A stretch of DNA of 62,270 bases, filler included, from Dugesia japonica (Eukaryota), in assembly GCA_001938525.1 (NCBI GenBank). It is 7 parts of 7 records of this genome, joined end to end, with 100 filler letters (N's around TTAATTAATTAA, not from the genome) between each part and the next. Parts side by side here need not be neighbours in the genome. Positions count along the whole stretch, not along the records: positions 53,352 to 62,270 come from MQRL01605860.1; 6 more parts are not named here. One strand, given 5' to 3'. Both the position numbers and the translations under genes were made by a program. This document shows, one piece after another, positions 2,616 through 59,099 of the stretch. The stretch's first letter is position 1. Every line of letters begins with the position of its first letter. Below the pieces are notes generated by a model. That model saw only the letters and a program-made list of their open reading frames with translations, was not told the DNA's origin and ran no database searches.

Positions 2616-3057
2616 ATTTATTAAATGTGATATCGTTTTAATATCTACTTTATTTGCTTTCAATTTTATATTTAATTTCTGTTGATAGCAATTTGAATTT
2701 TTTTATCTTGGTGCTGCAAATATGATACAAATTTTATTGGCTAAATATAAAATATTAACTTTGTTGTAATTAATAATTTTTAAGGATAATTTTGCACTTA
2801 TAATGACGAATCTAATTTTTCAAAATTTCGATTCCTTAAAAGAGCACTGAAATTTATCAAATTTAGAATTCAAAATATAAATGATCAAGACTAGTGATAA
2901 GAGAAAATCTAAACTTCAAATTTAATCTATTTCTGCATGTGACAGTTAATTTTTCAATTAGATAAAAGTTTGATATTCTTGAATATTATTTTTGTTAAAA
3001 AGATATAATTTAAACTGATAAATTCATATTTGAAAATTACTTTTCTCTAAACAGATA

Positions 3058-7518: not shown

Positions 7519-8453
7519 TGTTGGGGATTCACCTGAGTTGGATGTTAAGAAAAGGATGGCTGGGAAAAAACAGCCCTCGGGGAATCCTTTCAAGAATTTG
7601 AATCCAACACCCCTCAGTTGGATATTCAGTGCAGAGCGGTTGACATTCAACCTATACCGGAGGTTCACACTCGTACACCTTTAATTTGGGTTCATTAATT
7701 GCCCTTATAGACATAGATACAAAATTGGACAAAAGTTATCAAAACATCTATTAGTATTACATCTTATATGTCTTCCATCACACCAGGATCTAACCACTGA
7801 TTCGGGTCAGTCCCCCAAAAGTCAAACGCGGCAGTATCGTCATTGTCATCACACTGCGTCCACACAGGGTTTCCCATTTGGCTGGACAGGTCGGCTATGT
7901 ATTGCTTCAAGAATTCTATCTTTCTTTGTAATGTTTGTTTATTTTGTATTTCAAGAGCCATATTTTGGGCAGCCAAGTCACTCTGTTTTTAGACTATTAA
8001 ATCTAATTTCTTTATTAATCGGTTCCTCTGGGTGAGATGTTTTAGGATGACCTGTTCGGTCTTACGTTTTAAATGGCGTTCTAACAATAATCGTCGCATA
8101 ATCCGGTGACACCGTCGCAAACTTGTCGGGAATACGATTCGTGGCACTAAATGAAAAGTATAGTTAAGTCGGCTAAAACCAATTTTAAAAACAGAGAAGC
8201 AAATTAGAGTTGATGCAATTAAAACAATGTATTAAAGACAATCAAAATCATAAACGCGATAGCTCACGAGCATTTGGTCTGGGTACCTTTATCTACCAAG
8301 AGTGGGGGCAAAGGAATGGCTGTTCGCAACTTCAGGATATTCTCTATTAACTGATTCTCGCGCTCCTGGTATGACTTGATGAATTCGGTGAGGGATCCGA
8401 CTTGTGCTTTCCATACCCTTTCCTGCTTCTGGGTTGCTTCTATCTCTGATTTG
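7519..8453 (-). mobile_element. Copy B of the cassette element (3' part, cut by the contig end)
   Basis: Contains the ORF3 C-terminus (8264-8453, ...LVDKGTQTKCS*), ORF4 (7764-8146, premature TAA at ~7990) and the same 3' terminus. It interrupts a Helitron-associated repeat unit. Confidence 0.85.
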
Positions 8454-8498
8454 ANNNNNNNNNNNNNNNNNNNNNNNNNNNNNNNNNNNNNNNNNNNN

Positions 8499-8510
8499 TT
8501 AATTAATTAA
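8499..8510. other. Artificial assembly linker TTAATTAATTAA; also near 18258, 26898, 35603, 44198 and 53296
   Basis: The same 12-mer, with stops in all six frames, sits centred in ~100-nt N runs. Confidence 0.95.
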
Positions 8511-8554
8511 NNNNNNNNNNNNNNNNNNNNNNNNNNNNNNNNNNNNNNNNNNNN

Positions 8555-9300
8555 CAGAGCCATTTGAAACAGTATGTGTAGACATCACAGAACCATTAAC
8601 AACAGTAGCCGGTTATTCCTACATCTTAAGAATAATAGACGTATACTCCATGTATGTATCATTAATCCCGATGAAAAATATTACCGCAAAGGAGATCACA
8701 AAATCTATACTAGAAAGATGGATATCAAATTTTGGAATACCTAAAATCATTCATTCAGGCAATGGAACATAATTTAAGTCATCATCGATGAACAGATTAT
8801 GCGAGGAGCTACAGATAAATCAATCATATTCATCTCCATATTACCATGANNNNNNNNNNNNNNNNNNNNNNNNNNNNNNNNNNNNNNNNNNNNNNNNNNN
8901 NNNNNNNNNNNNNNNNNNNNNNNNNNNNNNNNNNNNNNNNNNNNNNNNNNNNNNNNNNNNNNNNNNNNNNNNNNNNNNNNNNNNNNNNNNNNNNNNNNNN
9001 NNNNNNNNNNNNNNNNNNNNNNNNNNNNNNNNNNNNNNNNNNNNNNNNNNNNNNNNNNNNNNNNNNNNNNNNNNNNNNNNNNNNNNNNNNNNNNNNNNNN
9101 NNNNNNNNNNNNNNNNNNNNNNNNNNNNNNNNNNNNNTAAAAATACCGGAAGAACCACGAACAGAACAAAACAAAGCCAAAGTAGGAGATTTGGTTATGG
9201 TAAAAACCAACTAGAAGAGATTCTCAGGACCATGGAAAGTTAATAATATTTTACCTAATAATAATTTAGAGCTTTCACTGAACAATAAAATAAGAAATTA
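8555..9300 (+). pseudogene. Gypsy integrase remnant
   Basis: Reads PFETVCVDIT...WISNFGIPKIIHSGNG...SSPYYH, with stops and a gap. Confidence 0.85.
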
Positions 9301-26953: not shown

Positions 26954-29450
26954 TACTTTTTCTGCTCTAGCATGACACAAAAGATGGTGTATCCTTAATA
27001 TAATCTTTTCTACTTTATTATCAGGTATCCATGTTCTTACATCATTCTCACTAAAATTGCCTTTTTTGTCTTGTATTTAATGTTCTTGTTTTTAATTTTC
27101 CAATTTTGGGATCTTCATGCGACATTAGACATTGTGTATATGTACCGCATTCATTAATAGACAACATATCCGCATTTGTATGAAGTCATCCTTCTTTATA
27201 TTCCAATTTTATATCTAAACTGATCAAATAATTAATCCAAGTTTGAAACTGTGATTTCACGGGATTCTTGGTATTTAGCATAAAAGTGATGGATTTATGG
27301 TCTGTTCTGAGGACAAACTTCATTCCATTTAAGTAATGTTTGAAATGAATACAAAAGTAGTAAATTGCTAGCAATTCTTTCCGTGTAGTTCAATATTTTT
27401 TCTAATGACTCGTCATTGCATGAGACCCATATGCAATTACTCTTTCTTGCCCATTGTTGTTCTTTGAAGATAGTACTGCCCCAAGCGTATCAAAACTCGA
27501 ATCCGTGTCCAAATTAAATTCTCTATTTATATCTGGAAAATATAATATTGGAGACATCATTAGTGTTTCTTTTATTCCATTAAAAATTTCTTCTAATTCA
27601 TTCGCCCATTTAATATTCTTGTTACTTGGCTCACTATACAGTTGTTCAGCAATCTAGCTTTTTTCGAATAATCTTTAATAAACTTGCGATAGTAATTGCA
27701 AATTCCTAAAAAGATTCTCATTTTCTTAACGCAGTTTGGTTTATCAAAGTTCTTAATTGCTTCTATTTTATTTGGATCTGTTTTGACATTTTCTTTATTG
27801 ATAATGTGTCCCAAAAGTTTGATTTCTTTTTGCATGAATTGACATTTCTCTGGATTAACTTTTAGACCAGCCTTTTTAATTTCTGTCATTACTTTATTGG
27901 CTACTTTATAGTGTTGCTCCTTTGATTTGGTAAATATGAGAATATCATCTAGATAAATTATTGCTTCTTTTATTTTCCGGATCACTTTATTCATCATTTC
28001 CTCGAACGTCCGTGGTGCTGCTGAAATTCCAAAAGGCATTTTATTGAAACAAAATTGCCCTTGTTTGGTGGAAAAGCCGTCTTTTCTTGAGAATCTTCAC
28101 TGAGTTGCAATTGATAATATGCATTTCCCAAGTCTATTGAGCCAAAATACTGCGTAACTTCCAAAGCATCCAGCATTTAGTCCACATTTTGCATAGGAAA
28201 AGCTTGTCCTTTTGTTATTGCTTGAGCTGTCTAAAATCTAAGCATGATAGTATATTCTTTTTTTCCTTTTTCCAAATCCAGATTAATGGCCTATTTCATT
28301 GCAAATTAAACTTCTGGATGATACCATTGTCATATAGATTTTTGATGAACTCTTTAATTTTTTCCTCTAGATTCATTGATTAGCGATACGGTTTTATGTT
28401 GATAGGACCTTCTTTAGTGATTATTCGATGCTTTTTTAAGTGTGTACTGCCAATATTCCATTTATATGTCATAGATACATCCTCATTGTTTTGAATAATC
28501 ACAGTCAATCTATGATCTTTGTTAATTTTTAGAATCTTTATTGCTTGTCTCAATTGTTCACCCGTCTGTATCTGCCTTCCAGATGTTTCCTCAATATTGC
28601 AAACAAATTTTTCTCGATGATTATTGATGTCTATCCTGCACTTTTATTTGAAGATGATACTCAAAAGTATTCTGAATTTCGACTCCACTAATTAGATATG
28701 GTAATAATTAATCTCTCTACTATTATAAATATTACTTCCTTGCACACCTTTGAAACTACAACTTCTTGTCTCCAATGAGATTTAATTCGCGCAATGCAAT
28801 CGTTCTTCGCTTTTCTCTAACATTGTTTCTTTGAGTCTATTAAATCCTTTCATGCTCATCACATTTTTATTTGCTCATGTATTTCACAAACAATGAAACT
28901 GTTCTTCCTTGCATTTTTTCATATGAAATTTTTACATTCTGTTTCTCTTCAATTGCTCATATCACTTCTGTTTTGTTAATTTTTGCATCATTTAAATATT
29001 TTCGTTTTAGGAATCTGTAAACCTTTTCTTTCACTTTACTCGTCTCTTACCGTTTTTCAGTCTTTTGAGGACATTCAAACGGTATCTCGTTAAATGAATG
29101 GCTCCAACCAACTTCTCTAGTCACGGAGCCCTGCCTTTTGAATATTTTCTTCTTTGATCTTCATTTTTTATTATGCTCCCAGAAAATATCTCTTCATTCT
29201 TTTATCATAATCTTCTTAAATGGCATGAATTGGTTAGGTCCGAATCCAATCTTTTGTTTGTTGTTCGCTTTTAAAATTGTATTTTCTCTCTTCTAGTCTT
29301 GTGTTATTAATGTGACCTCGTCTTTTACATCTACCAAATAAAATTTCTTTGCACATATTTCTGATGTGACTAATCTTACCGCACCCAAAACATTTTAGTG
29401 GTTTCTTATCTGGACAATTTCTACTTAAATGTTCTTTTTTCATTATTTAT
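26954..29450 (-). mobile_element. Ty3/Gypsy gag-pol, decayed
   Basis: CCHC knuckles (29234-29443), RT motifs IDLGNAYYQL, MPFGISAAP and YLDDILI, and RNase H motif RTDHK. Confidence 0.95.
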
Positions 29451-37011: not shown

Positions 37012-37919
37012 TTAGGTTTTTCGGTTTACACGATACGTTTTACTCCAGATATCCATTAAACAAATTGATGAATGAAATCGAAAAAATATTATTAATGGCA
37101 AGAGTGTATGTGTGATAATGCTCCAAGGAGTTTTTTGGTAATATTTCGTAAAAATTAAGTGTTCGTCGGATCGTTTAGCTTCAAAAATACTAACAATCCA
37201 TAACGCTAAATTGATAACAATTAGAAATGTTACTAAAGATCTTCCGGGTTTGAGCTTTACTTGAATTTCACTAATTGTTCCTTTTCTTGAGCTTTCAAGT
37301 ACAAAAAGAACTTGTATAGATGACTGTATTATTTCTGTAAGAGACTTTAAAATAAACAAAATAATGATCAAAGAATATTTCGGATTGTCTAATCTTATAA
37401 ACGAATCAATTGTTGAAATAAATAAGAAAAGATTATATGAAAAGACACCAGCCAAACCAATTAAAAGAAGATTATCATCCAATGCTTGTTCTTCTGTTAA
37501 CTGTCGGAATTGCAAACTTCTCATTTTAATAAAAGCCCAAATAAGAGTTATAATTCCTGAAATTAAAAGTATTATTTCTGATGATTGATAAACGAGAATC
37601 GATAGAGCCTTTGTTGCTATTTTCTTTCTAAAAAGAAAAAATATAGCAACCCCAACTAAAGTAACCATAAAGAAAAACAATCCAATAAATAGTCCTCGAT
37701 GTGATCTGTGACATTCTGAATATTTAACTCTACTTTCTTCTGTAGGTGCAGTGTACTTGTCCCGATAATGAGGTTCTTTGTATTTTCTCCCAACTTTTTG
37801 AAGCATTTTATAAAATATGGCAGCACTAATTAAACTATATTCAATTGAACAAGGAAATAAATATGGTGACACTGTGTATGATAATTGTTGAGAACAGTTT
37901 GAGTAACTGTCGGTTTCAT
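37012..37919 (-). CDS. otop: Otopetrin family proton channel, terminal exon
   Basis: Motifs SPYLFPCSIEYSLI, GLFIG, KPGRSLVTFLIVINLALW and PLIIFFRFHSSICL. The acceptor TTTAG at 37920-37924 is phase-compatible with the upstream exon. Confidence 0.95.
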
Positions 37920-37997
37920 CTAAATCGAATCAATTATGAATATAAATATTAAAAAAATCTTAAAAAAATTTAAATAATTTAACTATTAAAAAAATAA

Positions 37998-39488: not shown

Positions 39489-39564
39489 CTATAAAAAGAT
39501 CAAATTTATTTTCTTCGAAATTAAAATTTTTTATTAATTAAAATGTATTTAATAAGGTGCTTAC

Positions 39565-39722
39565 TCTGTGATATTTGAAAACGAAAAATGTTTGAATAAA
39601 AATATATGTTAAATGCAAAATATGTTTAGGAGTCCATAATTCATTGTGACAATTATCGCCTTCTAATCTGAATTTGTCAGCAATTTTAAAACCATCATGA
39701 ACCATTACTCCAAAACCAAAAC
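39565..39722 (-). CDS. otop: Otopetrin internal exon
   Basis: Reads FGFGVMVHDG...HLTYIFIQTFFVFKYHR, with a TATAG acceptor and GTAAGC donor. Confidence 0.9.
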
Positions 39723-40404
39723 CTATAAAAAAAATAAATAAAAGAAATCCTGGTAATATTGATTTAATTAATTAAAAATATTTGTATTATGTTATGAAAT
39801 ACAAAGTTAAATTAAAATGTAACCATATAACGGGACAAACGTAGTAATTCTTACAAATTTCCCGTTTTTATTTATCTATAGAATTTGAATAAAATAAAAA
39901 TTAAATTAAATATATTTATTAAAGAATATAAAAAACTAAATATCATTATATAATAAACATTTAAATATTATAAATAAAATCTTTTGATTATTTTTTATTA
40001 TAAATTATTTGTCTTTAAATTTTAGGCAGTCTTTCTAGATCAATTCAAAAAGTGAAAATAAACAATGGATTTTAAACATTAAAATTTTTAAATTATATAG
40101 TTATTTAATATAAAAACAATTCTATTCGGATTCATTTTCTTTTCATAAAAAGTAATATACAACGCAAACAAACTATAATATATTATTTCGATTATTATTT
40201 TTATTTTTATTTGAGTTCGATCACTTATTCTTCTCACCTATCCAGTGCACGAACGGGATACAAATATATTACATGCGACTATTGGATGTTACAATGCTAG
40301 ACGTGAGTAGTGGAGGTTTAATAACTTATTTTATGTTTACATTTTAAAAATTTGTTTAAATTTTTGTGAAAAAAATAAAATGAAAAAACAGAACAAAGTG
40401 AATT

Positions 40405-47934: not shown

Positions 47935-48900
47935 AACAGGGACAACAATCAGCAACTATGACATGGAAGAACTTAAGAAGACAATCACAGAAGTGATAAG
48001 ACAGTGTGAAGCGTGCTGAAAGAACAAAGTTAATACTGGGGCAACAAAAGTGACAACAGTAAAATTAAGCGCACATTGTCCATTTGAAAAGATATGGACA
48101 TTTGTGGGCCTTTTCGAGAGACTGTGAACAGACGAAGATATATATGTGGAATAATAGATCAATATAGTCGATATGTAAGCCTAACGGCAATCAGCAAGCA
48201 AGATGATGAGACAATTAAAAAAGTGATAATGGAAAAATGGATCCTGAGATTTGAAGCTCCGAGAGAAGTTCATGTGGACAGTGGTAAAACATTTGAATCG
48301 AAAAACTTCAGGAGTCTGGTGGAATCGATGAACATGAAAGTATATTTTTCAAGTCCATACCATCACAATACAAACGGGATAATAGAGAGACGATTCCGCA
48401 CAATCAGAGACTGTATTAACGCAGCCGCAGAGGAAGATAGAAGAAAGGATTGGAATAACAGAATACCGGAGATTGAATACATGATGAATGCGACAAGGCA
48501 AAAGATATTGGGGATATCACCAGCAGAATTAATATTTGGTAGGAGAATTCACAGAGAACAATGGTTCGACAGCCAAAAAGATGACAAAGAGTCGATGGAA
48601 GAAACACCTACAAAAAGACAATTTCAAGTGGGAGACGAAGTATTGATAAAACTAGAACAAAAGACAATGAAAGATATGCTGGCCCATAAAAGATAGCGTA
48701 GAAGGTTCATGAGAGAGGATATCGTATACGAAATGCAAATGGAAAATTGCTAGAAGGGAACGTAGAAAAACTTAAACAATTCTTTTAATCGAGGGGGATG
48801 TAAGTATTAAAAATTGAAATTGCAATTTAAAGTTTGAAAAAGAAAATGCTAAAAAAGATTTCAAGAATTTTTTAAAAATATTTAAACAACTTTGTTTAAA
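47935..48900 (+). mobile_element. Gypsy integrase, polypurine tract and start of 3' LTR
   Basis: CEAC zinc finger, MDICGP, HVDSG and SPYHHNTNGIIER. PPT GAGGGGGA is followed by TGTAAG at 48799. Confidence 0.92.
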
Positions 48901-51379: not shown

Positions 51380-52740
51380 GAAAGTTGTCCTGTTCCGTTA
51401 TGCCTTCTTTGCAATAAAAAATGTATCAATGGCTCAAGCCAATTGAAACAACATTTTACAATAACCATCACTTAAACATGTAGAATTCCTAAAGACAATT
51501 AGACTCTCAAAATAACAAGAGTAAATTCATTGAGAAAACAAACGTACCAGTGAAAACATTCGATAATTATGTTATTTTGTAACAAAACATGTTCCCCAAA
51601 AAGAATTTTATACAACACGGGTGAATTTAAAAATACAAACATGTAGCATTATAGCTGTTAAAATGTTAGGACAACATGCAATACCATCAATCAAAAGTGT
51701 TTCCCTTTTCAAAAAGTACAATAAATCGATGTCCTGGTAATATGTTGCATGGTTTTGAAGATGTCTTATAAAATAAGTAATGAAATAATAATTTTTACTA
51801 TTCCGGTTGATGACAAAATATATCTTAACAATAAATTACATGTTGAAACTGTCAATAATAATGAATTTACAGAAATCGATTTCTTTTGCAAAGAAATACC
51901 TGGGGCCAGCAATGAAATAAAGAAATTTGATATTTAGATTTATTATTGAAAAGATCGTCAATGATTGGTTTCAAAGAGGCTTCTGTACTTCTGTACTTCT
52001 CATAAAATGAAATTCAAAAAAATGATTTTATTTCAGTCTCAGGATAAATAATTTTCGATGAAGCTACAAATATGATGAATTATAAACTTTAACTAATTCA
52101 CTCTAAAATTTTAACAAAAAAATTATGTGGAAATATAAAAAAAATTAAAGATTATGATTGAACTAAAATTTTAATGAAATATTTCCAAAAATTACTAAAA
52201 TAAATTTTACTAGGTTCTTTGAAGATTGAAAATGCTTGCAACTGAAAAGCCGATTCATAGTACTAAATAATGTATTACCATCAAACTATAAACTCTTGAA
52301 TACTTTTGGAAGAAAATATTAATTATTTCAATTAAAATTAGAGCTTAAAATGAATGATACCTTAAAAGTCTATGTACATCTGAAAATACTAGTAATCAAA
52401 ATTGAAAACTATTTTTTTGTAAAAAATTTAGTTTAAAATTTTGGAACGGAATAATGATCTGAACCTTTTATTTATTCTGAGAACCTGACAATCATTATAA
52501 ACTCAAGATAATATTTGTATATCTTTTCTTAAACAAATACTTGAATCCTGTGAAGATTAAGCGTTTTTTTTTATAAAAGCAGTCAAATAAATTCTAAATT
52601 TTTCAGCATATTAAAAACTTTCTCTTATTCAATAAGCTTCAAGAATAAAAGCAGAAACCATAATTTTACAATTTACGATGAAATTCGTATTTGATTATCT
52701 AAAATTCCATCCTAAATTAGATGTGTACCAAAAGACAAAG
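51380..52740 (+). pseudogene. hAT (Buster/ZBED-like) transposase remnant, highly decayed
   Basis: BED-finger relic PLCLLCNK...SSQLKQH and a C-terminal relic. Confidence 0.5.
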
Positions 52741-52888
52741 ACATATTTCTAATTATAGAATGATTGCTTATATTGATTTCAAAATAAAATTGATTGATAA
52801 ATAAAAAAAAATTTTGAAGTTTAATTAATATTCAAACTATTATTTTATTTTAAGAAACAATCAATTAGTCACGAATGACAAGCAATTA

Positions 52889-53069
52889 CCGTATTTTCCG
52901 GACCATAAGGCGCAGGTAGAAACCTTCGAGATATTGAAACCTGTTTTATTTTTTGACCACTTTTTGGTGTTATTAAAATAAAATGATTTCATTAATAAAA
53001 CTGACTGTAAGAAAAGATTGAATAGGCAAACTTTGTTATCAGGTGTGCCTTATAATCCAGAAATTGCGG
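52889..53069. mobile_element. pogo/Tigger-like MITE
   Basis: TIRs CCGTATTTTCCGGACCATAAGGCGCA and TGTGCCTTATAATCCAGAAATTGCGG, flanked by TA. Confidence 0.8.
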
Positions 53070-53657
53070 TAATGTGAATTAAATATCAATATTATAACAG
53101 TTGTTAAGCTGGGACTAGATAGTTCAATGATAAATATCGTTATTTTGTTATTATAGGGTTTTCGCAAATATAAGTAATTTTATAATTACAATTATTGTGA
53201 GAATAATTGTTGAACTTAATCATTGATCGCATTTGAGATTTCATTAAAATANNNNNNNNNNNNNNNNNNNNNNNNNNNNNNNNNNNNNNNNNNNNTTAAT
53301 TAATTAANNNNNNNNNNNNNNNNNNNNNNNNNNNNNNNNNNNNNNNNNNNNTATTCTTTTATTGATTTGCCACAAAAAAATTCCCCGAATCAATCTGTCT
53401 ATTTAATTTACCTCACAATTATGATCAGAACCCAATACAAAATCAGAACCATTTTACTATTTTCGAAATTTATTTCATTCATTATTATTTATTTTTATTN
53501 TGGTGGTATTGTTCTATGGCTCACTAATTTTTCGAAAATTTATTTGTTATTAGTAGATGAATAGGTAAGTATCAGACCAGTTGAGAATAAAACTTAATCT
53601 ATTCACATAACAAGCACGGTATTTTGTATATTACATAATCACTTTCATGAAATTTTA

Positions 53658-53773
53658 GGGGGTGCAGACATAATTTCCCCTTAGAAATATTTTCTTCTTG
53701 GAAATAATATCCCCTTGGAAATAATAAATAAAATAAATAATTATTTCCAAGAGGAAATTATTGCATTAACCCA
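53658..53773. repeat. Small inverted-repeat element
   Basis: ATAATTTCCCCTTAGAAATA / TATTTCCAAGAGGAAATTAT, plus internal CTTGGAAATAATA repeats. Confidence 0.6.
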
Positions 53774-54132
53774 ATTTTAGCATTATATAGAACGATACGT
53801 AATTGCTATGTTACATAATAAATATTTTTATTATCATTGTTTATCTTATTATATGATTATTTACAATTTTTTTATAACAACTATCAGAGATATATTATCT
53901 ATTAAATATATAACACCACAAGTAAATATTTCTTATTATTAAACGGGAACAAGCCAAAAAGCTAAATCAACGGAAAAGAATAGCAGGACCGTTATAATCA
54001 CCATTAACGAAATATGAAGTATGAAATCAACATTAGAAGAAAACGAAATAAAATCAAAGGTGAATGTGAAGTTTATAATTACAATTATTGTGAGAATAAT
54101 TGTTGGACTTAACCATTGATCGGATTTGAGAT

Positions 54133-54310
54133 TTCATTAAAATAAGATAAGGCTTCGATCAAAACAAAATTTATTTGTAAACAAAGTTCAAATTTTCGAC
54201 AATAGTCTTCTTTCAGGAAGAAGTCTCCTGAAGAAGACTAATGTCGAAAATTTGAACTTTGTTTACAAATAAATTTTGTTTTGATCGAAGCCTTATCTTA
54301 TTTTAATGAA
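54133..54310. repeat. Near-perfect 178-bp palindrome containing hammerhead cores
   Basis: ~85-bp arms differing at about 2 positions, with a 7-nt spacer. Confidence 0.95.
54221..54259 (+). ncRNA. Minimal type I hammerhead ribozyme (Penelope-type)
   Basis: AAGTCTC-CTGAAGA-A-GAC TAAT GTC-GAAA-ATTT-GAACTT: core boxes, stem II and an imperfect stem I. Confidence 0.6.
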
Positions 54311-56437
54311 TGTAAAGAACCGGGTAACATAAAAACCACTTACGCATGGAAATTAAGAACAATTAGTAATTTAATAATAAACAACGAAGAAAAGCGATAA
54401 GAAAAAATAATTAATTAGCAAAAGGAAATTAATTAATTTTAAAATAAAAAAGAAGAGAAATTAGTTAAAAATCTGTTTTATCAAGATAACTTTGTTCAAG
54501 GAAGTCGGAAAGAGCCCGGACAAGAAAAAATGAAGAGAGAACATCAAGATACAATTGAAATTACGAAGAGAAAAAACTTACCACCTTCCATAAGGGTACT
54601 GCAAGGTTTCCAAGATCCAGCCAATAAGAAACCTAAAAACAAAAATAGAACAAAGACACCAGTGTCAAGTGTCATGATAAAAATAACTACCAACGGAATC
54701 ACAGAAAAGTCTGTAAAATTCCAGAAAAGTAGCATCAATGCAAATAAAAACGGATTGTTTCAATTTAAAAATAACGGACCAATGTCAAACAAGTTGGGGT
54801 GTCTCAGAAACCCTATATAAAGGATCCCTGATTTCAACATTTTCATCTAAAAAATCAAGTTTCTAATAAAAAATTTTAACGATAAAATTTTTAACAGAAT
54901 ATAACTGTTCACCAAAGAAATTTCACCAGATAACAAGTTAGTACCTGGCCAGAAGAATTCGATTCCACCAGAATACGATTTAGTAAAAAACTTGATTAAT
55001 TAGATCACGATTAATTTTATTTCAAGAGTACCAAATCACCTCCGAAGAAATCTAATAATTCTAGTGTTGGAAATAGCGAGAACCGTTGTAGACAGCTTAT
55101 AAGAATAGTAAAAGTAAATTGTTATTTTTGATTATAAAAGTGATAAATTTGTTAATGTCGAATATTATTTAACTTAATAAAAGTAGTTTCTGTTATGCGA
55201 TTGGGCATTAATTTTTCTTTTAACTGATAATTTTAGAAAGCATTGGGAAATTGACCTCAAATCAAGCTAAGAATCCCTTTAAAAAATTATTGATTATTGC
55301 AAAGGCAAATATTTTTTTTTGTGGCGCACAAATAATAAAATATGGGAAAAATTGGTAATTTCAAAAGGCATGTTCTGGATTAACTAAAATTCGAGTATTC
55401 AGACAGGGTTTGATGGTTTTTGACAATTTTGCGTTACCCAGCTAGACTAAAATATCATAATAAAATAATCGAACAAATAAACCATTTCTAATTATTTATT
55501 AAAAAAAAACAGTAAATAGTAAAGCAACTCACCTCAATAAATTCCAATGAAATATGATCAAGAAGAATTGGCAATAAAATAAATTCCAAAATAATCATAG
55601 CATTCACTCTAAATCTCCTACTCATTATTGACAGCGGATTTTCAGAATCAGATGCTATAAGAGTAAAATTTTCCTTTAAGTCAATTAGGTACCATGTAAC
55701 ATATCTTACCCGTATGGTGAGAACTCCCAAGTAAAATTCAGCCAGATAAATTAATATTCATGCTAGTCGCAGTAGAGTGACTAATAGATATTCATTATTT
55801 AAATCAGATTATCTGCCCTACACACATACTTAAACTAACAGGCACACACTCCAACATGTAAAATCCAAATAGCTAATTTAAACAATGTTGCCACGCAACA
55901 ATAATAGGCAGAAATACAAAATCTCAAAAATAATAATTTTTAATTTGTTTTCTATGTTTTCTTCATGAATCTATTGATGAATAATAATATAGTAACAACT
56001 GTCGGGATCGGTATTACTAGAAGCTGGTCATGGTCCGCAATGATGGAGTTAGTAAATAAATAGGCATCGATTTATCATGATATTAAGAAAATTGAATTAA
56101 CATTTGGGTAGCCACTAATCAGGATCAGGATAGGGGTTAACCCCAGGGATATCAACCACGATATGGCCATGCTTTTATGCGTTAATGAGTAACTATATTG
56201 TGGATAAAAAGGGGGGAAATGAATTATTTGCGTTATGTGTTTTTGCGGTAAAATTAATTATTATGTTAAATACCCCTAATTCCATAACCAAAGTGCGATA
56301 ATCCTAGATAACTTACTTCCTTTAATGACTCCCGTTTCATGATACGACTCCTTAATTAAACCAAATGCTACAATAGTTTAATTCAGCAAGTAAATCAAGA
56401 GGCAAAGATCATAGTTAATCAGTTCATTTTTTTTAGT

Positions 56438-56620
56438 ATGTCAGATAAATTATATCATACCTTACGCTGGATTGGAAAACAGCGACAAAGTTGTCGGACA
56501 AAACAGTTGATAGCGCACCTCCTCACCAAGGGGCAAATTGAACACCCTGACGAAACAGATCTTTGCTGTTTCGCCGAGTTGTACCCTGTAGAGGTGAAAG
56601 TAGACTTGGACGAGGAGTGA
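56438..56620 (+). CDS. Cassette ORF1, 60 aa, unknown
   Basis: ATG lies 1 nt after the acceptor TTTTTTTTAG (56436). AATAAA follows at 56659. Confidence 0.5.
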   Translation: MSDKLYHTLRWIGKQRQSCRTKQLIAHLLTKGQIEHPDETDLCCFAELYPVEVKVDLDEE

Positions 56621-56748
56621 CATCGATTGTGTATTAGTATCCGTAAGGTGATTTCCTGAATAAAACTCTGTGTATTGTATTAATAATTGCATTTAAATGA
56701 CTCTTAAAATTTTATTTGTGGTTTATTATTATTTCATTATTCTTAGAA

Positions 56749-57105
56749 ATGGAGTCAATATGGGAGAGAACCGTAGATAGGAGAACGCGGCGAATCGTTT
56801 TCCGACGGCACCGCAATCCCCACAGTCGTGATGCAGGGATTCTAGCGGATAGAAGCAATCTGCCTCCCATAGAGTCAATTGTCGCACGTATAAGAGACTT
56901 CGGCGAGCGGCAGCAGTACCAGAATTGGACCAGGCCAGATCGCACCTTCGCGACCTCTTTCCAGTACCAGCCTCCTGCCCCTCTCCCCGCTCCGGCCATA
57001 CAGGCGTTCATAACTAACCTTCTTTGGGGGATTAGAGAACCGTCTGGAGTCATTGACAGTGAAAATACAGCCCCTAATATCGAAAATATTAATCCTGATA
57101 CCTAA
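56749..57105 (+). CDS. Cassette ORF2, 118 aa, Arg-rich N-terminus and Pro-rich segment, unknown
   Basis: Acceptor TTCTTAG (56746) is followed by AA-ATG. The frame reads MESIWERTVDRRTRRIVFRRHR...QPPAPLPAPA. AATAAA at 57124. Confidence 0.6.
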   Translation: MESIWERTVDRRTRRIVFRRHRNPHSRDAGILADRSNLPPIESIVARIRDFGERQQYQNWTRPDRTFATSFQYQPPAPLPAPAIQAFITNLLWGIREPSGVIDSENTAPNIENINPDT

Positions 57106-57255
57106 ATTTTGTCTGTTGCTTAAAATAAATGAATAGGTGTTTAAATTTTGTCTTCTTGTATTATATTTCTTTCGTTGCACAAGATAAGTTTTCGTTTTAT
57201 AAATATTATTCAACTAGACCTTGTAATTGTCATATTTAACAATCATAATATTCAG

Positions 57256-57614
57256 TGCATTCTTCTCTGAACAATTCTCAAGCTCCCCATAAAAAGTTAC
57301 GTGAGACAAGTGAAGATCTCGATCTCACATGGGATCTTTATAGATTAGCCAAAAGGCGATGGGAAACAGAGATCGCCGCGGCCGACGCTAAAGTAAAACG
57401 CTGCAAGCAAAAATGTTTAACTTTTAAAGCCGAACTGGACGCCACCCAGAAGCAAGAGAGGGTGTGGAAGTCCCAGGTTGAAACATTTACCAAGATTGTC
57501 CATTCTTATCAGGAGCGGGAGAATAGTTTGATGGAAAATGTATTGAAGCTGAGAGCAGCTACTCCTTTGGCCCCTCTCTGGATAGATAAGGGCACTCAGA
57601 CCAACCGCTCCTGA
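57256..57614 (+). CDS. Cassette ORF3, ~119 aa predicted coiled-coil protein ending in LC8-type motif DKGTQT
   Basis: Phase-1 acceptor ATTCAG|TG. The C-terminal part is conserved in copy B with synonymous changes. AATAAA at 57643. Confidence 0.75.
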
Positions 57615-57725
57615 GTGTCATGTTTACTAATTGATTGAGTTTAATAAACTATTTGTATCTTTGCTAATTGTCTTTTCTAATTATGAACTTGAGTTTTCGT
57701 CAGTTTAATTATACTTTTCATTCAG

Positions 57726-58108
57726 TGCCACGAATTAACTTTCCCAATAGTATCCGGAGGTGCCATAGAATTATGCGCCGCTTACTGGTCGAACGGCACC
57801 TAAAACTTAAGACAAATAGGGCATTTATGAAACAATTGGATCAGTGTGATCAATTAATTAAAAAATTAGATTTAATTGTCAAAAAGCAAAATGACCTGGC
57901 GGCTCAAACTAAAGCTTTAGAAACCGAAACCAAACAACTGTTGATGCGGAAAATAGAATTCTTGAAACAATACATCGCCGATCTGACCCGCCAAATAGGT
58001 AATCCAACCTGGATCCAGTGGAATGATAATGGCGATATCGCCGCCTTTAACTTCTCGATAACCGACCCGGATCAGAGGTTAGATCCCGGAGCACTGGAAC
58101 TGTTATAA
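57726..58108 (+). CDS. Cassette ORF4, ~127 aa basic, predicted coiled-coil protein with acidic aromatic tail
   Basis: Acceptor TTTTCATTCAG|TG is conserved in copy B as TTTTCATTTAG|TG. RKIEFLKQYIADL is identical in both copies. ATTAAA at 58201 is conserved. Confidence 0.75.
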
Positions 58109-59099
58109 ATAATTTTTGTGTGTGTATGAAAGAAAATATATATAACTAACCTCGTATTTTCTTCTTTGCTGACAAGAACAGAGAAAAGATTGAACCCGAA
58201 ATTAAAGGTTTTTGGGTGTGTACCTCTAATCAAGAATGACGTTAACCACCATGAACTGAAGACCTACTCTAGGGACGGTAGGATAAATTCTTGAACGGGT
58301 TCCCCTGAGGGCTGTTTTTTCCCCAGCCACTTTATTTTTCATTCAATTCAGGTGGGACCCCAACATTATTATCCTCATAAATAAATCTAAGAAGTCATTA
58401 TACTTAAAAAAATGACAAAAAAAATAATTTCTCAACTTAGGAATAACATATACATAATCAAAAAATAAAAAGATTTATCACAAAATTTATTTCATCATTT
58501 AAACTAAAATCATCGTCTTCTTCTTTGGCAAGCTGAAACCATTAAAACAGCAATTAAATACGTATTATTTAATTATTAATTTTGTAATGATAAACCTGAT
58601 GATTTATTGATTCNAAGTTAGTCTGCATAACTTTGTTTGGTTCTTCATCACCGTCTCCATCTTTGTTGGATGCATTTAAATTTTATGTGCGTTTAGAAAA
58701 ACGAGTTAAAATTTTTGTGTGATTAGTGATAGTATTTTTAAAATCTTTTGTTGAAAAGAAAGATTTAAAGTATTGATGGAGAATTTAAATAACAAATATT
58801 TTTTTCGATGATAAATTAAAGCTTTTGAGTAAAAGAAAACTTTAAATCAATAAATAAAATGTTGAAATAAATTAAATTAAATTAATTTTAAATAAATTAA
58901 GTTTAAATTAAAAAGAATTCATAAATGATAATTTGATAATAAAGTAAATTTTTATTAAAATTTGTAGCGTAAAAGAAAATTTGTCTTAAATTTTAAATAA
59001 ATAAATAAAATGTTTGAAATAAATTAAGTTAAATTTAGATAAATAAATTACAGTTTTCGATTTTGAAAAATGATCACCAATGAAAACACAGGATTTTAA

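What the first reader, a model, noticed from the sequence alone, without database searches (positions are those of the whole stretch)
57256..57614. Element-encoded coiled-coil protein with a conserved dynein light chain (LC8) motif DKGTQT
Seen: copy A ends WIDKGTQTNRS and copy B ends LVDKGTQTKCS, with three synonymous changes inside the motif (aag/aaa, ggc/ggt, act/acc). Established: K-x-T-Q-T is the canonical LC8/DYNLL-binding motif (DKSTQT in rabies virus P and in Bim), often next to coiled coils that LC8 dimerises. Inference: the element recruits host LC8 for dimerisation or transport, a virus-like accessory function.
Basis: partly seen in the sequence, partly recalled or inferred. Interest (0 to 1): 0.75.

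Follow-up and report, generated by a model that had tools for sequence, protein, structure and literature searches.

The report
Mobile-element coiled coil with LC8 tail
A repeated, probably retrotransposon-derived element in an animal genome carries a small gene, kept by selection, for a predicted long coiled-coil protein whose last residues match the textbook docking site of the host clamp protein LC8, so the element likely borrows LC8 as many viruses do, though binding and expression are untested.

Summary
Copy A (57256-57614, +) ends WIDKGTQTNRS and copy B (8452-8264, -) ends LVDKGTQTKCS. The ORF is under purifying selection (dN 0.19, dS 2.9). It folds as one helix (residues 9-102) with an unbroken heptad, then a low-confidence tail holding the motif. 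DKGTQT meets the published LC8 rules from -4 to +1; K-x-T-Q-T occurs in 15 of 79 known binders and 0 of 32 non-binders. The four family variants listed inside the motif are synonymous.

Limits: the three synonymous changes are what any six conserved codons here show (about 3 expected). The motif is only marginally better kept than its flanks (p 0.04-0.075). N/K at +2 is unfavourable (1 of 79 binders, 4 of 32 non-binders). No read covered the motif in RNA, the start codon is unknown, and no LC8 complex could be modelled.

The gene is one of four small ORFs in a multi-copy element of unproven class, probably a long LTR. Verdict: a credible, untested LC8 client in an unusual carrier.

The parts
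57256..57614 (+). ORF3 of copy A: coiled-coil protein exon from a splice-acceptor-like AG to the stop; no in-frame ATG before residue 93
   Evidence: dN/dS about 0.07 against copy B
57279..57560 (+). predicted single helix, residues 9-102, unbroken heptad repeat
   Evidence: AlphaFold2 pLDDT 94-98 over residues 21-100; heptad count
57585..57602 (+). DKGTQT, candidate LC8/DYNLL motif (positions -4 to +1), residues 111-116, in the low-confidence tail
57226..57255 (+). T-rich tract and AG: putative splice acceptor, followed by TG
   Evidence: sequence; no spliced read seen
8264..8452 (-). copy B: last 62 codons of ORF3 and stop; cut upstream by an assembly gap
   Evidence: 66% amino-acid identity to A; N runs at 8455-8554
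8276..8293 (-). DKGTQT in copy B
56438..56620 (+). ORF1, 60 aa, directly after an AG acceptor-like site; no Pfam match
56749..57105 (+). ORF2, 118 aa, after an AG acceptor-like site; no Pfam match
57726..58108 (+). ORF4, second helical/coiled-coil protein, also starting AG|TG; no TQT
7764..8146 (-). ORF4 of copy B, broken by one in-frame stop near 7990
57643..57648 (+). AATAAA 29 nt after the ORF3 stop; similar hexamers follow ORF1 (56659), ORF2 (57124) and ORF4 (58201)
   Evidence: such hexamers are common in AT-rich DNA
58200..58365 (+). conserved structured end of the element, closing in CA; shared with copy B (7519-7690, -)
   Evidence: 73% identity versus 45% in the flank beyond; 7 of 35 predicted pairs change on both sides, two sequences only
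56206..56221 (+). 14-purine run followed by TG: possible polypurine tract and LTR start
   Evidence: sequence only; not confirmed

Best explanation
ORF3 is a gene kept by purifying selection in a multi-copy mobile element, and it likely encodes a parallel coiled-coil oligomer whose C-terminal DKGTQT tails would be bound and clamped together by a host LC8 dimer. Shown: the ORF, its selection, the motif, its invariance in the copies seen. Predicted: the long helix and flexible tail. Inferred: translation from a spliced leader, self-association, LC8 binding as a beta-strand in the LC8 groove, and LC8 acting as a dimerisation clamp that stabilises an accessory protein of the element (probably an LTR retrotransposon) rather than as a link to the dynein motor.
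For: dN 0.19 and dS 2.9 over 62 codons. Helix 9-102 then a tail at pLDDT 54-70; unbroken heptad. Motif fits the rules of PMC6607443 section 9 at -4, -3, -2, -1, 0 and +1. In its Table S4, counted by eye, K-x-T-Q-T is in 15 of 79 binders and 0 of 32 non-binders, and [DE]-K-x-[TV]-Q-T in 9 of 79 and 0 of 32; NEK9 and SLC9A2 bind through KGTQT. Motif unchanged between A and B while 6 of 11 other tail residues differ. In 73, 118 and 96 contigs of three runs, all 4 listed variants inside the motif are third-position synonymous, at 2-43% of depth, and the highest bin in each run falls on the motif.
Against: N or K at +2 is seen in 1 of 79 binders and 4 of 32 non-binders. Excess conservation of the motif is marginal: p 0.037, or 0.075 without the copy-private W109, on a window chosen after the fact. 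20 of the 24 listed coding variants are synonymous, so flanks look as constrained as the motif; 16 of 56 variant rows were not shown and only contigs at least 80% alike were laid. TQT anchors often fail to bind: 7 of 19 predicted peptides bound in PMC6607443. The start codon is unknown. RNA support is nearly absent: 2, 21 and 5 partly fitting reads on the whole element, none on the motif and no splice joint.
Confidence: 0.6

Rival explanations
1. The tail is conserved for another reason (a partner among the element's own proteins, or overall constraint on a small protein) and the LC8 match is incidental.
For: The whole ORF is constrained; a given six-residue window is unchanged with p about 0.07; a longer identical run of 10 lies in the helix; +2 is unfavourable.
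Against: Chance of DK.TQT in the four ORFs is 0.06%, and it sits where LC8 motifs are expected, in a flexible tail beside a coiled coil.
Confidence: 0.2
2. The motif binds LC8 in order to ride dynein, carrying element particles or RNA towards the centrosome or nucleus.
For: Foamy virus Gag uses a coiled-coil docking site for dynein-directed trafficking (PMC7828637 passages).
Against: Partners use the same symmetrical LC8 grooves and LC8 is generally accepted as a dimerisation hub, not a cargo adaptor (PMC6607443). Nothing links ORF3 to a capsid or RNA.
Confidence: 0.1
3. ORF3 is an LC8 decoy or competitor that weakens an LC8-dependent host transposon-silencing complex.
For: In Drosophila LC8/Cut-up dimerises the PICTS silencing complex through Panoramix motifs (PMC7861614 abstract); the carrier here is a mobile element.
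Against: No LC8-dependent silencing complex was shown for this host; LC8 is abundant with over 100 partners, so one site is a poor sponge (inference); expression is at best very low.
Confidence: 0.07
4. The frame is no longer or never was translated.
For: No ATG before residue 93; no RNA read on the motif; no homologue in protein collections.
Against: 32 of 54 A/B differences are at third positions and only 4 at second positions; 20 of 24 listed family variants are synonymous.
Confidence: 0.03

Closest known systems
Canonical KxTQT LC8/DYNLL clients: Bim, Bmf, NEK9, SLC9A2 (PMC6607443; sections 7 and 9, passages and Table S4 read)
   Same: D/E-K-x-T-Q-T core; NEK9 and SLC9A2 share KGTQT exactly; KIBRA/WWC share V-D-K at -5 to -3 with copy B
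   Different: +2 is N/K instead of the preferred P/D/E; the motif lies 3 residues from the C-terminus; the carrier is a mobile element; binding untested
Viral LC8 clients: rabies P, Ebola VP35, HPIV3 P, papillomavirus E4 (PMC8615749 passages; PMC6607443 Table S4)
   Same: parasite-encoded protein with an LC8 motif; in VP35 and HPIV3 P the motif adjoins a multimerisation domain
   Different: no sequence relationship found; those are larger polymerase cofactors or viral proteins of known role, whereas ORF3 is little more than coiled coil plus motif
Foamy virus Gag and dynein/LC8 (PMC7828637, passages and a reference title)
   Same: retroelement protein with a coiled coil linked to LC8
   Different: a structural Gag protein docking through a coiled-coil motif; ORF3 is a separate small ORF with a linear TQT motif
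MDG1-group sORF1/sORF2 of Drosophila LTR retrotransposons (PMC11952523, section 7 read)
   Same: short accessory ORFs under purifying selection in LTR retrotransposons
   Different: two ORFs upstream of gag on unspliced RNA; here four ORFs, each after an acceptor-like site; no LC8 motif mentioned in the section read
Burro/GYPSM1 giant gypsy elements of planarians (PMC6431247, passages)
   Same: large LTR elements with accessory ORFs and host-like domains
   Different: no link to Burro was tested; the passages do not describe small ORFs inside the LTR

Membership tests
LC8/DYNLL client | TQT anchor at -1, 0, +1 | tested here: met
   both copies; listed family variants synonymous
LC8/DYNLL client | polar -4, large or basic -3, non-bulky -2, no internal proline | tested here: met
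   D, K, G; nearest proline is at -8
LC8/DYNLL client | preferred P/D/E at +2 (a preference; hydrophobic is disfavoured) | tested here: not met
   N in A, K in B; N/K in 1 of 79 binders and 4 of 32 non-binders; not hydrophobic
LC8/DYNLL client | motif in a disordered or extended segment | tested here: met
   tail 103-119 without secondary structure, pLDDT 54-70; a prediction from a two-sequence alignment
LC8/DYNLL client | motif conserved beyond its surroundings | tested here: inconclusive
   p 0.037-0.075; flanks also mostly synonymous
LC8/DYNLL client | self-associating chain next to the motif | tested here: inconclusive
   heptad pattern; no dimer model obtained
LC8/DYNLL client | anchor-dependent physical binding to LC8 | not testable with these tools
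   no LC8 sequence was available from any tool; needs ITC or pull-down
LTR retrotransposon (gypsy/Burro-like) LTR | TG...CA ends with a sharp boundary | tested here: inconclusive
   right end CA shared by A (58365) and B (7519), identity drops from 73% to 45% beyond it; left end not fixed (candidates 56000 and 56220)
LTR retrotransposon (gypsy/Burro-like) LTR | 4-5 bp target-site duplication | tested here: inconclusive
   no left TG in 52000-56500 had both a duplication and a terminal inverted match
LTR retrotransposon (gypsy/Burro-like) LTR | linked gag-pol with PBS and PPT | tested here: inconclusive
   PPT-like run at 56206-56219; rve fragment beside copy B is on the opposite strand and across a gap; no genome held

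The most novel reading that the evidence does not exclude
A transposon encodes a minimal LC8-hijacking protein, coiled coil plus TQT tail, that competes with or infiltrates an LC8-dimerised host silencing complex: a transposon counter-defence aimed at the hub that piRNA silencing uses in flies.
Probability: 0.07. Interest if true: 0.85.

Novelty: new member of a known kind. Interest (0 to 1): 0.5.

Why it matters
LC8 hijacking is well known for viruses, but three full-text searches (listings only) showed no transposon-encoded accessory protein with a canonical TQT motif; the library lacks most subscription papers. If binding is real, it gives a first functional handle on an unnamed small-gene array of an abundant animal mobile element, testable with one peptide, and raises the question of whether transposons meet the host at LC8, which flies use for transposon silencing.

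Tried and rejected
Homologue searches found nothing usable: ORF3 near and longer lengths, ORF4, viral contigs with ORF4, metagenome contigs with the ORF3 alignment and with a terminal DNA pattern, PDB sequences with the 26-residue tail. The 1.84-billion-protein profile search gave 2 hits: P0002 is a repetitive helical protein and P0001 had no matched stretch; both were rejected as compositional. Pfam hits for ORF3 and ORF4 were all below cut-off. The Atlas gave unnamed clusters at 0.93 with a low recognition value, treated as uninformative; a second Atlas query did not complete. No Rfam match in 55800-58700, so a hammerhead reading of the structured end was dropped. No RNA holder was listed; run X12 laid 0 reads, which is no test. 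The complex predictor was not available, so neither a homodimer nor an LC8 complex was modelled. No fold search was run, since a single helix matches any coiled coil. No whole genome is held. The original Burro paper was not found under the id tried. The three synonymous changes were rejected as motif-specific evidence.

Full report
Observation. The finding's coordinates run from just after an AG at 57254-57255 to the stop at 57614. The frame ends WIDKGTQTNRS, and a second copy on the minus strand ends LVDKGTQTKCS at 8264. The three codon differences quoted are correct. The two matches are the only K-x-T-Q-T in six frames of the window and are homologous. Locally shuffled windows give 0.5 K.TQT and no DK.TQT on average over 40 shuffles; in the element's four ORFs pooled, the chance is 0.8% and 0.06%. 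These figures ignore the many other motifs a reader might have recognised.

The ORF is a real gene. Over the 62 shared codons, 19 are identical, 22 differ synonymously and 21 non-synonymously; differences by codon position are 18, 4 and 32; dN is 0.19 and dS 2.9, near saturation. ORF4 gives dN 0.23 and dS 3.3. AlphaFold2 on the two-copy alignment gives one helix from residue 9 to 102 and an unstructured low-confidence tail. One heptad register has 77% hydrophobic a/d residues against 15-56% for the others. There is no ATG before residue 93; the exon begins TG after the acceptor-like AG, as ORF4 does, so the N-terminus would have to come from a spliced leader or a near-cognate start.

Motif quality. 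By the rules in PMC6607443 section 9 the site has the TQT anchor, D at -4, K at -3, G at -2 and no internal proline. Against: +2 is N or K, seen in 1 of 79 binders and 4 of 32 non-binders, and only 7 of 19 predicted peptides bound in that study. The pattern counted was chosen after seeing the motif, and the binder list may itself be enriched for it because early searches used it (my inference).

Conservation across copies. The motif is unchanged between A and B while 6 of 11 other tail residues differ (p 0.037; 0.075 without W109, which nearly all laid contigs lack). Laying three DNA-like runs on 57500-57680 at 80% gave 73, 118 and 96 contigs. Of 56 variant rows 40 were shown; 24 are in the coding part, 20 of them synonymous, and all 4 inside DKGTQT are synonymous third-position changes at 2-43% of depth. 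The highest bin in each run lies on the motif and depth falls after the stop.

The carrier. The host is an AT-rich animal (otopetrin exon); earlier notes call it a planarian, which I did not check. The element holds four short co-oriented ORFs, each after an acceptor-like AG, each followed by an AATAAA or ATTAAA. Run X3 laid 3421 contigs on it; near-exact contigs have depth about 11 while summed depth on the motif is about 2700-3000, suggesting hundreds of copies, with the tool's warning that this is no copy number. A and B share a structured end closing in CA, beyond which identity falls from 73% to 45%. A purine run followed by TG at 56206-56221 could mark a 3' LTR of about 2.1 kb, but no target-site duplication or linked gag-pol was found. 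ORF1 fits the motif of e1-9268182, which reads its element as a retrotransposon LTR; that is a lead, not independent support. No homologue of ORF3 or ORF4 was found.

Expression. Three RNA runs, read in part (6-25%), gave 2, 21 and 5 partly fitting reads; in X11 a few lay on the first third of ORF3, none on the motif, and no joint was listed. This neither shows nor excludes expression.

Mechanism. Most likely (0.6) two ORF3 chains pair through the long helix, their tails lie side by side, and an LC8 dimer binds both and stabilises the oligomer, as for viral multimerisation domains next to LC8 sites (PMC8615749 passages). Every binding step is inferred; no complex could be modelled. Transport on dynein is less likely (0.1), because LC8 is regarded as a dimerisation hub, although foamy virus Gag is a retroelement precedent. 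An incidental match has 0.2. A decoy against LC8-dependent silencing, known from the Drosophila PICTS complex (abstract), has 0.07.

Papers seen. PMC6607443: outline, sections 7 and 9, passages, Table S4 whole and search hits in another supplement. PMC6431247, PMC7828637, PMC8615749, PMC8532177, PMC13524379: passages. PMC11952523: abstract and section 7. PMC7861614, PMC12057147: abstracts. Searches for a transposon-encoded TQT client and for small ORFs in planarian LTRs were read as listings and showed none.

Verdict. A real, selected small gene with a strong but untested LC8 motif in the expected structural setting: a new member of a known kind (parasite-encoded LC8 client), in an unusual carrier. 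Interest 0.5.

Noticed in passing
window 56438-58206: Each of the four ORFs has its own acceptor-like AG and a poly(A)-like hexamer 19-93 nt after its stop, with the next acceptor about 80-130 nt further on: an alternative-last-exon or operon-like layout.
   Followed up: partly
window 58222-58333: This short part of the structured end has summed contig depth about 161,000 in run X3, some 30- to 100-fold above ORF3 and ORF4, so it is shared with a far larger repeat family; no Rfam match.
   Followed up: partly
window 55992-56191 (+): A decayed frame of about 66 codons with two internal stops lies upstream of the purine run; no similarity to ORF1-4 was found.
   Followed up: partly
window 54133-54310: Near-perfect fold-back with 80-nt arms and a minimal hammerhead-like core at about 54228, like the Penelope stubs in earlier notes; the hammerhead label is from recalled consensus.
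   Followed up: no
window 37012-37929 and 39538-39771 (-): Otopetrin exon (Pfam E 2.5e-67) and a probable further exon of the same host gene.
   Followed up: no
window 8555-9243 (+), 27402-28643 (-), 48088-48696 (+): Fragments of LTR-retrotransposon integrase and reverse transcriptase; the one beside copy B is across an assembly gap and on the opposite strand.
   Followed up: partly
window 57726-58108: ORF4 is a second long helix followed by a short beta hairpin in the model; an ORF3-ORF4 heteromer was not tested.
   Followed up: partly
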